A stretch of DNA of 64,000 nucleotides from Pelagomonas calceolata (Eukaryota): NCBI GenBank assembly GCA_918797485.1, contig CAKKNE010000001.1, forward strand, positions 1,054,001 through 1,118,000. Reading direction: 5' to 3'. The notes under the pieces are model-generated. The model ran no database searches. It had not been told where the DNA came from and saw only the letters and a program-made list of their open reading frames with translations. How positions within the stretch are numbered: the first letter of the stretch is position 1; every line of letters starts with the position of its first letter. The translations under genes were made by a program, and so were the position numbers. This document shows positions 54,238 through 62,523 of this stretch, piece by piece.

Positions 54238-57200
54238 ATGGGCGGCGGCGTATCATCTCTCCCGGCAGAGGTCTCGCTTGCCGAGGCGAAGGAGCTGGCG
54301 GGCGCCAAGTGGCAGCCCGCGTGGGAGGAGAAGTTCGCGGAAGCCAAGATCTCCAAGGACGAGGCAATACAATGCTGGAAGGAGTCCGAGGCCAAGGCCG
54401 CAATCTCCGAGGCGCTCTACGAAAAGCTCCACGGCGCCGACCGCTCCAGCGTTGCGGAGGCGCTGGATTTCTCGGCCATCGTTAATGAAAAGCGCGGGCA
54501 GCACCTGCCCGGCACGCGCGAGTGGGTCTTCGAGGCGGTGCTCCGCTGGCGGACCGACGCTGATAGCGCCAAGCTCTTTTGGCTCGTGGGTGGCGGCGGC
54601 ACGGGCAAGAGCGTGGCAGCGGCTGAATTGCTCGCGCGACTGCTCGACAAACAAAACGCGGCCGCGTGGCATTTCTGCAAGCACACCGAGCCGGCGCGAT
54701 CAGCTCCAGCGGTGCTGCTGCGGTCTCTGGCGGGCATGCTTTGCGCCACGGTCGAGGCCTTCGAAGACGCGCTGAAGGAGAGCGCGGGCGTCGAGACTGA
54801 CAAGGTCGACGAGCTCTTCGAGGCTTTACTAGCAAAGCCGTTGCGAAGCGTCGAGGCGCCGCGCGGCGCGGACGACGCCCTCGTATTAGTCATAGACGCG
54901 CTCGACGAACTGCCGCGGGACGCGCTGCAACCAGTGTTATCGCTGCTCGCGACCGAGCTCAAGACGCTGCCGCCGTGGATCAAACTTGTCGTGACGAGCC
55001 GCGACGAAGCGCAGATTAAGGGTGCCCTCTCGGGGTACACGCCGTCGGAGCTGCGCGTCGACGAGGCGAGGAACCGGCAGGACGTGAGGGCGTACCTGAC
55101 GGTACTCGCGAAGGAACACGTCGAGCTCGAGGTGACGATGGAGTCGCTGCGGCACGAGGTCGAGGCGAAGTTCCCGGGCTTGAAGAATCTCGACACGTTC
55201 GCCGACCTCGAGGATCCGCTGCGCCGGTCAAAGGGCGCGTACGACGAGGCGGTCCGCGGCGTTGCTGGGATCCACGAGCTCGAAAAGTATAAGGAGCGAC
55301 GTCTCGACTTGATGCAAGACGAGACCGACTTCGACAAGCTCTACGCCGACGCATCGCTGGCGCAGACGATTTTGGTCGATGCGCTGAAGACGCTGCCGGG
55401 CGACGTGGCGGACCCAGGCGTCAAAGGGCGTGGATCCGCGGAGCGCAAGCTCGCGGACAAGTACACCGACAAGAATGGGGTGCCACATCCCGAGAAGTTT
55501 CGGGACCTCTCGCGCGCGACGGTCCTTTCCGGAAGCGCTACTGACCTACTGAAGGTGCTGACCGAATTGGACGGTGGCGGCCTCGGCCTGGAGATCGCTC
55601 AATTAAAAAACAAGTTTGCCAGTCCGACGCCGCTCGGCTACCGCGATATGAATTTGAACGTCAGCACACGCCTCGACGACGGCCGAAAACATCTCGCCGA
55701 GGTTCAGCTGAATTTAAAGAGCGTCGCGAATGCCAAGCACATCGCCCACGAGCAATACGAAGTCATTAGACTGGCGTTGCCGAAGATGTGCGAGGGCACG
55801 AGCGTTGGCGCGGGTGCGCTCGAAGCCTTTATTGCCGAGCGTCTCAACTCGTCGGCGCTCGACGCGGCTGTCACTTCGCTCGAACGGAAGGCCGGGGGAC
55901 TGATGCTCTACGCGCGGCTCATCGCAGACCAGCTCGAGGCCACGAGCGGCAAGATCGACTTTGCGAGGGTCGGCGCGCTGCCGGCGGGCCTCGACGAGAT
56001 CTACGCGGAGAACTTTCGGCGCGTGTTTGTCGACGATGGCGCGTGGGGTGATGCGCTGCCGCTCGTCGAATTAATCTGCGCTGCTGGAGAGCCGTTGACC
56101 GTCGACGCGGCGAGTGGTGCGCTGGGCTGGGATCGAGCGCGGTGCAGGAAGGTCTGTGACGGCGTGTCCCTGCTGTTCCCGCTGCGCGAGGGCGACGTCA
56201 TTGGCGTATTACACAAGACCGTGACTGACTGGCTGATGGGCGAGGCGCCGTTCGACAAGCGCTCTTCTGAGGACGCGTTCTTCGTCGCGCGGGACGCGGC
56301 GCACCGGCGGCTGGCGCGGGCGTGTGCTCGGGCGATTCGTGCTGGGGTTCTGGATACGGAGTCGTACTCGAGCGACGCCGCCGCGGATGTGGTGCTCGCA
56401 TCATTTGTGGAGGGCGAGGGCGGCGTGGCGTCGGATGCATATGCGTTGCGTTGGTGTTTGTTCCACTTGAAGCGGTCGAGAAACGAGGGCGAGGCCGTCG
56501 CGGTCGCCTGCAGTCTCTCGTACGTGCGAAAACGGAGCGCTGGCGATATTGTTTCCTTCGTGGCGGACCTGAACGTACTTCAGGGTCAGGACACACTGCT
56601 TCTTTCCGACTCCTTGGTGTTGTCGCGGAACCTGCTGTCACGGGGATTGCCTCTCTTAGAGCAGTTGTGGCAGCGGCTTGTGCCGCGCGCCAATGCGGAA
56701 TCGTCTCCTGCCGCGCGCCGCCTAGCCGACGATGCCAAGAGTGCTGCGAGCAAGCTGCCGCTCTCGGCCGTGCGGCCGATGGGTCTGACGGCGGCGGGTG
56801 GGGCGGAGCGATGTCTGATTGAGACTCAGGCTGAGTGCTTGGCGACGTTCGTGGATCCGGCGACGGGCGAGCCGCGGGTTGCTTGTGGAGTAGGTGGCGT
56901 GTATAGTCGCGAAGTGCGCATCTACGATCCGGTCGCGGGCGGCGCGGCGCTGGTCGTGATTGATGTAGGCTCGGATGTGTACGCGCTGGCGGTCTTCACA
57001 GATCCGGCGACGGGCGAGCCGTGTTTGGCTTGTGGCTGTTATGATGGGAAGGTGCGCATCTTCGACCCGGTCGCCGGTGGCGAGGCGTTGCTCGTGCTCG
57101 AGGTGGGCTCGAGCGTGTATTCGCTGGCGGTCTTCGCGGATCCAGCGACGGGTGCGCCGCGGCTCGCGAGTGGATCAAGGGACGGAAAGGTGCGCGTCTA

Positions 57201-62523: not shown

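What the first reader, a model, noticed from the sequence alone, without database searches (positions are those of the whole stretch)
54238..62523. Algal NLR-like receptor with an alarmone-synthetase (RelA/SpoT-like) domain inserted inside its NACHT module
Seen: one intron-free 2761-aa ORF. After Walker A (GGGGTGKS), Walker B (VIDALDE) and NRQDVRAYL, about 250 aa intervene before the NACHT resumes at LERKAGGLMLYARL. That insert (core ~55390-55770) carries VKGRGSAERK, FRDLSRAT, LKNKF, GYRDMNLN and AEVQL..H..YE, in the order of the Syn motifs of RelA/SpoT small alarmone synthetases. Known: fungal NLRs can carry RelA_SpoT as an N-terminal effector, and bacterial toxic SAS enzymes (e.g. CapRel) act in anti-phage defence by pyrophosphorylating tRNA or making (p)ppNpp. 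Inference: a membrane-anchored (MGGGVS) immune receptor in which sensor binding and the NACHT switch control an embedded nucleotide-messenger or toxin enzyme, possibly antiviral. I do not know of this internal-insertion architecture being characterised in algae.
Basis: partly seen in the sequence, partly recalled or inferred. Interest (0 to 1): 0.9.

Follow-up and report, generated by a model that had tools for sequence, protein, structure and literature searches.

The report
Algal receptor with embedded alarmone synthetase
A marine alga encodes an immune-receptor-like protein that carries, inserted inside its ATPase switch, an intact-looking copy of a bacterial toxin-type alarmone-making enzyme, which likely lets the receptor drain or reroute the cell's GTP/ATP when it is triggered.

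Summary
Observation confirmed. The 2761-aa ORF (54238-62523, +) is a NACHT-WD40-ankyrin protein. A ~250-aa cassette (helical stalk plus RelA/SpoT-type synthetase, aa 293-539) sits between two helices of NACHT helical domain 1. Pfam misses the insert. It folds confidently (pLDDT 89), and its 11 best structural matches among 48,161 chains are all RSH synthetases. The catalytic Asp/Glu and four nucleotide-binding residues are intact and under purifying selection. The same layout occurs in Pelagomonas calceolata, a diatom and a haptophyte, in a full transcript, and in paralogues with introns inside the insert.

(1) The enzyme belongs to the exported-toxin clade (RelV/VpEAS, Tas1/Apk1), not the CapRel tRNA type. 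It is closer to the (p)ppGpp-only RelV/VpEAS type (36% identity) than to Tas1 (27%). (2) The cassette is mobile: two ~60%-identical versions recombine onto near-identical scaffolds, and the cassette also sits inside a Roc GTPase domain in another pelagophyte.

Best reading: a switch-gated, nucleotide-draining defence effector. Activity, gating and trigger are untested. Ten literature searches found no description.

The parts
54238..62523 (+). Whole ORF, 2761 aa: NACHT[RSH insert]-WD40-ankyrin/Tudor receptor-like protein
   Evidence: domains
54238..54258 (+). MGGGVSS, predicted N-myristoylation motif (MGxxxS; motif recalled)
   Evidence: MG...[ST] in 13 of 23 Met-starting NBD-bearing rows, including unrelated starts MGSGTS, MGAGAS, MGSAVS; many of the misses start downstream of the true N-terminus
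54460..55062 (+). NACHT nucleotide-binding domain, aa 75-275: Walker A K124, Walker B D220/D223, sensor-1 R255
   Evidence: PF24883 NPHP3_N E 7e-25 and AAA_16; residues conserved in alignment A3; coordinates
55063..55113 (+). Helical domain 1, first helix (aa 276-292), before the insert
   Evidence: AF2 helix, model residues 216-232
55114..55314 (+). N-terminal helical stalk of the cassette (aa 293-359)
   Evidence: helices in both models; accompanies the synthetase into Roc and EF-hand proteins
55315..55791 (+). RelA/SpoT-type synthetase of the RelV/Apk1/EAS clade (aa 360-518): K396, K404, D423, R426, K457, N458, Y468, N472, E488, Q490
55792..55854 (+). C-terminal stalk helix of the cassette (aa 519-539)
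55855..56817 (+). NACHT resumes: rest of HD1 (LERKAGGL), winged helix (LHKT, H659), HD2
   Evidence: STAND/AAA+ structures align across the insert; Prymnesium homologue hits HTH_TANC1 (weak, E 0.04) and APAF1_C (E 2.7e-7) here; no Pfam hit in the window copy
56836..58737 (+). 13 WD40-like units of about 46 aa (two beta-propellers); unit number varies among paralogues
58738..61605 (+). Ankyrin arrays with two Tudor/Agenet-like domains (59344-59487, 61462-61605); includes a 369-bp unit repeated 3.1 times
61777..62523 (+). Final ankyrin block after a Ser/Gly-rich linker; has its own Met and may be a fused neighbouring gene
   Evidence: at most 35% identity to anything in the fetched loci; absent from P0007

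Best explanation
This is a NACHT (STAND) receptor-like protein with WD40 and ankyrin repeats whose likely effector is a toxin-clade RelA/SpoT synthetase inserted into helical domain 1, predicted to be held off in the resting state and, on triggering, to convert GTP/GDP (more likely) or ATP/ADP into (p)ppNpp, which would arrest or kill the challenged cell. Shown: architecture, insertion point, fold, intact catalytic residues, purifying selection, transcription, spread across three algal lineages, cassette exchange among paralogues. Inferred: (a) the enzyme is active, because the same residues are used by Apk1 and SaEAS; (b) it must be restrained, because relatives are lethal in a cytoplasm and no immunity gene lies alongside; (c) the restraint is the NACHT ADP/ATP switch, since HD1 helps form the nucleotide pocket (established STAND knowledge, recalled) and the stalk could relay the change or oligomerisation could expose the enzyme; (d) the repeats sense a pathogen ligand; (e) the protein sits on a membrane through myristoylation. 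My odds on product: (p)ppGpp about 55%, mixed about 20%, (p)ppApp about 20%, other about 5%.
For: Fold: insert pLDDT 89, pTM 0.83. The top 11 of 48,161 chains are RSH (RelP Z 14.2, SAS1 13.9, Tas1 13.4 with the highest identity, 28%), the next unrelated row Z 6.7. In the 701-aa model, STAND/AAA+ chains align across the insert (Cdc6 Z 15.0, model 24-528, 231 aligned; Avs3 Z 14.7, rmsd 3.3; ZAR1 Z 14.1) while RelP and Tas1 align to model 303-452 only. Catalytic set D423/R426/K457/N472/E488/Q490 corresponds to SaEAS D121/R124/K154/N169/E182/Q184 and Apk1 R330/N370/E382 (PMC12691689 section 5; my mapping from the alignment). It is intact in 41 of 43 complete rows (92 non-bacterial rows examined, 49 incomplete, not dereplicated) and in 25 of 30 complete NACHT-flanked 50%-cluster representatives. 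dN/dS in the synthetase is 0.11-0.28 in 7 of 7 loci compared. Clade: in 401 genomes of one bacterial phylum, 12 matched; nine of the ten best bacterial matches are 257-268-aa proteins at 93-105 bits, most with signal-peptide-like starts, against 47 bits for a PAAR-Tas1-type protein. Pairwise, 36% over 157 aa versus 27% over 146 aa. The VpEAS sequence seen in the paper's supplement has the same KN-F-xP-xxGYRDxN loop, which Tas1 shortens. VpEAS makes only (p)ppGpp and kills when cytoplasmic. Other close bacterial kin are fused to eCIS, MuF, HINT and VgrG toxin-delivery domains. Conflict-gene behaviour: two synthetase types 57-61% identical on NACHT parts that are 78-95% identical; synthetase dS 1.2-1.35 against 0.18-0.57 in flanks; type A is a 100/100 clade on the synthetase tree but is rejected on the HD1b-WHD tree (p-AU 0.002); WD-like unit number and ankyrin tails vary. 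Expression: complete MMETSP transcript P0011, 92% identical over aa 61-760; poly(A) reads cover both junctions and no listed joint skips the insert.
Against: No activity, gating or phenotype is measured. The orientation of insert against NACHT is undetermined (pTM 0.49), so no autoinhibitory contact is shown. The synthetase tree backbone is unresolved: RelV as sister is not shown. Substrate preference varies within this clade (Apk1 A-specific, VpEAS G-specific, SaEAS both), so the product is a guess. On the NBD tree type-A monophyly is not rejected (p-AU 0.061). The same cassette occurs behind EF-hands, ion channels, a BCCT transporter and Hsp70, which fits ordinary signalling as well as defence. 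Most reads are 90-95% alike (437 of 600 in X21), so they show expression of paralogues more than of this copy. No link to virus infection was found.
Confidence: 0.55

Rival explanations
1. Switch-gated second-messenger synthase: the enzyme makes modest cytosolic (p)ppGpp as a stress, nutrient or light signal rather than a lethal dose.
For: The cassette also follows EF-hands, ion-channel and transporter domains in dinoflagellate-lineage and unnamed proteins. Stand-alone RSH hydrolases that could reset a signal are reported in Aureococcus and Emiliania (PMC3153485 passage). NACHT domains are listed as enriched among low-light genes in P. calceolata (bioRxiv 10.64898/2026.09.29.755320, one passage).
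Against: Nearest characterised kin are unregulated high-turnover toxins (PMC12691689). Paralogue expansion, repeat-number variation and cassette swapping are typical of conflict genes.
Confidence: 0.2
2. The insert is an integrated sensor or decoy: it binds nucleotides or a pathogen inhibitor of alarmone enzymes and trips the NACHT, with signalling through another partner.
For: It is the most divergent part of the module among paralogues, as decoys often are. There is no N-terminal effector, but NLR pairs exist (recalled).
Against: All catalytic residues are kept across lineages only 35-45% alike. An arginine at position 400 or 403 is kept in either-or fashion (65 of 67 rows; 35 of 36; rows are not independent), which points to a working phosphate-binding site.
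Confidence: 0.12
3. CapRel/FaRel2-type translation toxin that pyrophosphorylates tRNA 3' ends.
For: CapRel aligns at Z 12.5, within 2 of the top. Such toxins act in anti-phage defence (PMC11245113 passages).
Against: 15% identity to CapRel against 28% to Tas1. The D-x-x-R and EVQxN signatures are shared with Tas1 and VpEAS. PMC12691689 reports that this clade acts on nucleotides.
Confidence: 0.06
4. Outward-directed effector that manipulates the stringent response of associated bacteria or of the plastid.
For: Proposed for fungal RelA_SpoT NLRs (PMC4986451 passage; PMC10197012 passage). Bacterial kin are exported.
Against: The N-terminus is an MGxxxS motif; no signal or transit peptide is evident by eye (no predictor was run); the enzyme is embedded in a 300-kDa protein.
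Confidence: 0.05
5. Assembly chimera, bacterial contamination or a spliced-out insert.
For: One near-identical copy sits in a bacterial MAG (L020), most simply an algal contig binned by mistake.
Against: Same insert at the same site in 20 of 20 fetched proteins spanning both flanks (selected by the insert), in named algal genomes and transcriptomes, with spliceosomal-type introns inside the insert in L005 and L008. GC3 0.75-0.78 matches the flanks at 0.77-0.81.
Confidence: 0.02

Closest known systems
Fungal NLRs with an N-terminal RelA_SpoT domain (Dyrka et al. 2014, PMC4986451; review PMC10197012)
   Same: NACHT plus WD40/ANK repeats coupled to an RSH synthetase proposed as effector; untested there too.
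   Different: There the domain is N-terminal and Pfam-detectable. Here it is inside HD1, below Pfam detection, of the RelV/Apk1 clade, and carried on a helical stalk. Whether the fungal domains share that clade was not tested.
RelV / VpEAS and the exported alarmone synthetases (Ahmad et al. 2025, PMC12691689)
   Same: Nearest characterised enzymes: 36% identity to a RelV-type protein, same motif set and Syn3 loop.
   Different: Those are bacterial, Sec-exported single domains or secretion-system effectors. Supplement searches found none of 11 eukaryote or NACHT terms.
Tas1/Apk1 and Apk2 (p)ppApp synthetase toxins (PDB 6OX6; PMC10083569)
   Same: Best PDB sequence hit; shared D-x-x-R, YxGD-type and ExQxN features; ATP-binding residues conserved.
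   Different: Lower similarity than the RelV type, shorter Syn3 loop, delivered to rival cells and neutralised by immunity proteins.
CapRel and other tRNA-targeting toxSAS
   Same: Same fold; sensor-fused RSH toxin used in defence.
   Different: 15% identity, different motif spacing; autoinhibited by a fused antitoxin, not embedded in a STAND switch.
Plastid RSH1-4 of plants and algae (PMC6881373, PMC3153485)
   Same: Algal RSH synthetases.
   Different: Long, plastid-targeted housekeeping enzymes. A long RSH scores about 12 bits on the insert profile against about 100 for the RelV type.

Membership tests
NACHT/STAND (NLR-like) receptor | P-loop NTPase with Walker A, Walker B and sensor-1 Arg | tested here: met
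   K124/S125, D220/D223, R255; PF24883 E 7e-25
NACHT/STAND (NLR-like) receptor | HD1 and winged-helix domain follow the NBD | tested here: met
   STAND structures align over model 9-605 across the insert; H659 kept in 15 of 15 covering rows
NACHT/STAND (NLR-like) receptor | C-terminal superstructure-forming repeats | tested here: met
   13 WD40-like units and ankyrin arrays; no LRR
NACHT/STAND (NLR-like) receptor | N-terminal effector domain | tested here: not met
   Only 74 aa precede the NBD and have no Pfam hit; the candidate effector is internal
NACHT/STAND (NLR-like) receptor | Ligand-triggered nucleotide exchange and oligomerisation | not testable with these tools
   needs biochemistry
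RSH synthetase (SYNTH) domain | RSH nucleotidyltransferase fold | tested here: met
   top 11 of 48,161 chains are RSH, Z 7.8-14.2
RSH synthetase (SYNTH) domain | Catalytic Asp and Glu with ATP-binding Arg, Lys, Asn, Gln | tested here: met
   D423, R426, K457, N472, E488, Q490. The RelSeq G240-R241 pair is replaced (PG), as in active VpEAS (AG) and Tas1 (AP)
RSH synthetase (SYNTH) domain | PF04607 above its curated cut-off | tested here: not met
   no hit for the window insert; Prymnesium homologue 22 bits, cut-off 27
RSH synthetase (SYNTH) domain | Pyrophosphate transfer from ATP to a 3'-OH | not testable with these tools
   no assay
RelV/Apk1/EAS clade | Closest homology and D-x-x-R / GYxxxN / ExQ signature | tested here: met
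RelV/Apk1/EAS clade | Nesting within or sister to RelV on a tree | tested here: inconclusive
   backbone unresolved, long branches meet
RelV/Apk1/EAS clade | Export signal or secretion-system domain, or an adjacent immunity gene | tested here: not met
   no such Pfam domain in the ORF; neighbours are an ankyrin protein and an F-box-like protein
tRNA-targeting toxSAS (CapRel, FaRel2) | Closest kinship and basic CCA-binding groove | tested here: inconclusive
   CapRel Z 12.5, 15% identity; groove not examined
Fungal RelA_SpoT-NLR | RelA_SpoT placed N-terminal to NACHT | tested here: not met
   the domain lies inside HD1

The most novel reading that the evidence does not exclude
Marine algae have domesticated a bacterial secreted-toxin alarmone synthetase as a portable 'stalk plus enzyme' cassette that plugs into the inside of NTPase switches (NACHT helical domain 1, the Roc GTPase domain) and behind other sensors. 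The switch cages a lethal GTP/ATP-draining enzyme and releases it on infection. This would be the first eukaryotic cytosolic immune pathway run by (p)ppNpp, with interchangeable enzyme versions swapped between paralogues in an arms race with viruses.
Probability: 0.4. Interest if true: 0.93.

Novelty: new variant of a known kind. Interest (0 to 1): 0.82.

Why it matters
Pelagophytes, haptophytes and diatoms are major ocean primary producers whose cell-autonomous defences are barely known (background knowledge). An NLR-like receptor with a built-in alarmone synthetase would extend nucleotide-depletion immunity, known from bacteria and from other enzyme classes, to (p)ppNpp in a eukaryotic cytosol. 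It would also show an unusual wiring: the effector sits inside the switch, not at an end. The claim is directly testable, because the ~250-aa cassette folds on its own in prediction and standard E. coli and nucleotide assays exist. It also gives a handle on the untested fungal RelA_SpoT NLRs.

Tried and rejected
Pfam and NCBIfam scans of the window insert alone gave nothing, and single-sequence PDB search gave only YwaC at E 0.78; profiles and folds were needed. My first reading, a Tas1-like (p)ppApp enzyme based on the best PDB hit, was lowered after RelV-type proteins scored about twice as high. A recalled diatom 'RelTPR' family was not found in print (no TPR family in the passages of PMC6881373). 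No relative in IMG/VR by pattern scan (181 candidates, 0 confirmed). Phage records gave only one Bordetella phage gene. BFVD fold matches are phage RelA/SpoT and Tas1-like proteins plus a weak giant-virus hit. The synthetase tree did not resolve the bacterial sister group. No whole genome is held, so paralogue number, insert-less paralogues and a hydrolase partner in this organism could not be counted; all homologues were gathered through the insert, so '20 of 20 carry it' does not show that insert-less relatives are absent. No second NACHT gene lies in the window. Read support for the final ankyrin block was not obtained. Earlier findings of this scan: none returned. No complex prediction was run. 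Literature searches returned no description of an RSH domain inside a NACHT or in algal NLR-like proteins; subscription journals and bioRxiv supplements are not covered.
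Full report
Observation. The window is GC-rich eukaryotic DNA; its closest named homologues are Pelagomonas calceolata proteins, so a Pelagomonas-like pelagophyte is inferred. No whole genome is held. Pfam finds the NACHT-type NBD (PF24883, aa 92-255, E 7e-25), WD40 and ankyrin repeats, and two Tudor-like domains, but nothing on the insert.

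The insert is an RSH synthetase. A profile of six homologous inserts hits Tas1 (E 5.9e-12), YwaC (1e-8) and further small alarmone synthetases in the PDB (11 sequences at E<=10, the top nine all RSH). Folded alone, the insert gives pLDDT 89 and pTM 0.83. Among 48,161 representative chains the top 11 are RSH enzymes (RelP Z 14.2, rmsd 4.2, 156 aligned; Tas1 Z 13.4, rmsd 3.6, 148 aligned, 28% identity; CapRel Z 12.5, 15%) and the next row is Z 6.7. The residues that PMC12691689 lists for SaEAS and Apk1 (section 5) map to D423, R426, K457, N472, E488 and Q490. This set is intact in 41 of 43 complete rows out of 92 non-bacterial rows (not dereplicated) and in 25 of 30 complete NACHT-flanked cluster representatives. 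Synthetase dN/dS against the 7 close metagenomic loci is 0.11-0.28. The window copy has Ser where most relatives have Arg at position 400, but it has Arg at 403; one or the other holds in 65 of 67 rows and 35 of 36. I read this as a compensating swap along one helix; that is inference, and the rows are related.

It lies inside helical domain 1. In the 701-aa model (mean pLDDT 76, pTM 0.49) the first HD1 helix (aa 276-292) is followed by a helical stalk, the synthetase, a closing helix and then the remaining HD1 helices. STAND and AAA+ structures align across the gap (Cdc6 Z 15.0 over model 24-528 with 231 aligned; Avs3 Z 14.7; ZAR1 Z 14.1), while RelP and Tas1 align only to model 303-452. The low pTM means the position of the enzyme relative to the switch is unknown.

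It is real and expressed. A complete MMETSP transcript (P0011) carries NBD, insert, WHD and WD40 at 92% identity over aa 61-760. Poly(A) reads from one sample cover 54134-57400 continuously, mostly in the orientation expected for + strand RNA, and none of the 15 listed joints (6 more not shown) skips the insert. Most reads are 90-95% alike, so they come largely from paralogues. Paralogue L005 has a 62-nt GC-AG intron at about 4031-4092 and L008 a GT-AG intron, both within the cassette (boundaries read by eye). All 20 fetched proteins that span both flanks carry a 246-274-aa insert, though they were found through the insert.

Spread. The layout recurs in P. calceolata (P0006, P0017; fragments P0016, P0026), the haptophyte Prymnesium parvum (P0028, 35% over the insert) and the diatom Proboscia alata (P0127). 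Against 1.84 billion cluster representatives the profile finds 102 proteins at E<=1e-30, 2088 at 1e-10 and 5911 at 1e-3. Of the best 150, 14 have NACHT on both sides, 29 on one side, 43 are too short to tell and 64 have other surroundings. I scanned 36 of the 150 with Pfam. In P0148 from the pelagophyte Chrysophaeum taylorii the whole stalk-plus-enzyme cassette (aa 654-976) sits within a Roc GTPase: G1 at 563, G3 at 614, strand 4 at 636, then the cassette, then G4 at 1004, G5 at 1104 and COR (G-motif labels recalled). P0182 has the same downstream junction. Others carry the cassette after EF-hands (Amoebophrya), or the enzyme beside ion-channel, BCCT or Hsp70 domains.

Which enzyme clade. The best PDB hit suggested Tas1, but a scan of 401 genomes of one bacterial phylum found 12 with matches. 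Apart from the algal-type contig in G001, the top nine are 257-268-aa proteins at 93-105 bits, most with signal-peptide-like starts; a PAAR-fused Tas1-type protein scores 47. Pairwise the insert is 36% identical to the former and 27% to the latter. I identify the former as RelV/VpEAS type by eye against the VpEAS sequence in supplement file 2 of PMC12691689. That paper shows VpEAS makes only (p)ppGpp and is lethal in the cytoplasm, SaEAS makes both alarmones, and Apk1 makes (p)ppApp. HINT- and VgrG-fused bacterial proteins score as high per domain as the RelV type, eCIS- and MuF-fused ones somewhat lower. The tree of 49 domains does not resolve the backbone, so a bacterial toxin-clade origin is supported by similarity, but neither donor nor direction is shown.

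Cassette exchange. Among close paralogues the synthetase comes in two types: 88-95% or 57-61% identical to the window copy, while NBD (85-95%) and HD1b/WHD (78-100%) do not follow that split (one divergent-start row at 67%). Synonymous divergence in the synthetase of type B loci is 1.2-1.35 against 0.18-0.57 in the NACHT flanks. Type A is a 100/100 clade on the synthetase tree, rejected on the HD1b-WHD tree (p-AU 0.002) and not rejected on the NBD tree (p-AU 0.061) (12 rows). WD-like unit counts run from 7 to 13 among the protein records, and ankyrin/Tudor tails are present or absent (some records may be truncated).

Mechanism. A cytosolic enzyme of this clade should be dangerous, there is no immunity gene next to it, and it is wired into the lid of a nucleotide switch, twice in unrelated switches. 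The simplest model is switch-gated release of a nucleotide-draining effector after the repeats bind a trigger (confidence 0.55). A gated but non-lethal messenger (0.2) and a decoy role (0.12) remain open. tRNA modification is unlikely (0.06). Nothing here ties it to viruses.

Comparison and novelty. Fungal NLRs with an N-terminal RelA_SpoT domain are known but untested (PMC4986451 and PMC10197012, passages). RelA domains appear as effectors in bacterial conflict systems (PMC7159879, passages). Divergent SAS in diatoms and stand-alone hydrolases in Aureococcus and Emiliania are noted in PMC3153485 (passages). Ten searches found no report of an RSH domain inside a NACHT or Roc domain, and the EAS survey's six supplement files hold none of 11 eukaryote or NACHT terms. 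The library lacks most subscription papers. What I saw of each paper: PMC12691689 abstract, passages, sections 5 and 9, supplement searches and one part of file 2; PMC10083569 passages and section 5; PMC11245113, PMC4986451, PMC6881373, PMC3153485, PMC10197012 and PMC7159879 passages; bioRxiv 10.64898/2026.09.29.755320 one passage. STAND domain names, the myristoylation motif and the Syn and G-motif labels are recalled. Verdict: new variant of a known kind, interest 0.82.

Noticed in passing
P0148 aa 563-1338 (Chrysophaeum taylorii); P0182: The same stalk-plus-synthetase cassette is inserted inside a Roc GTPase domain (between strand 4 and the G4 motif) of a Roco protein: a second NTPase switch hosting it.
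   Followed up: partly
P0136, P0155, P0159, P0161, P0195 (EF-hand); P0170, P0187 (ion channel); P0193 (BCCT); P0199 (Hsp70); L019:107-2269 (TPR): The same enzyme clade is fused to EF-hands, channels, a transporter, Hsp70 or TPRs in protist or unnamed proteins: a large, apparently undescribed eukaryotic RSH group.
   Followed up: partly
P0028 aa 50-600 (Prymnesium parvum): An N-terminal ubiquitin-like domain ends in RGGG followed by CSQSK, so cleavage could expose a myristoylation site; an endonuclease/exonuclease/phosphatase domain precedes the NACHT. It may be a phosphatase partner or a gene-model fusion.
   Followed up: no
window:50452-52542 (+): Fused mRNA capping enzyme (guanylyltransferase plus N7-methyltransferase), a layout recalled from giant viruses; two genes upstream of the receptor.
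   Followed up: no
window:46610-47962 (+): By motif (recalled) a GDA1/CD39-type apyrase near the receptor; probably coincidental.
   Followed up: no
window:61666-62523 (+): Ser/Gly-rich linker and a final ankyrin block with its own Met, not seen in the paralogues; possible fusion with a neighbouring gene.
   Followed up: partly
L005:4031-4092: GC-AG intron within the synthetase; several predicted protein fragments break at the same site, so an intron there is common among paralogues while the window copy lacks it. L005 also has a 2-nt frameshift downstream.
   Followed up: partly
L020 (G001:C78): A 96%-identical copy lies in an alphaproteobacterial MAG, most likely an algal contig binned by mistake.
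   Followed up: no
L022:1903-4168 (Bordetella phage PHB04): Portal, synthetase-bearing protein, small ORF and HD phosphohydrolase in the Apk2-Tis1-Aph1 gene order, yet the synthetase keeps the RelV-like loop.
   Followed up: partly
window:35300-38830 (+): Protein with PH- and SH3-like parts and two tandem inositol-5-phosphatase-like domains (by eye), with an internal duplication.
   Followed up: no
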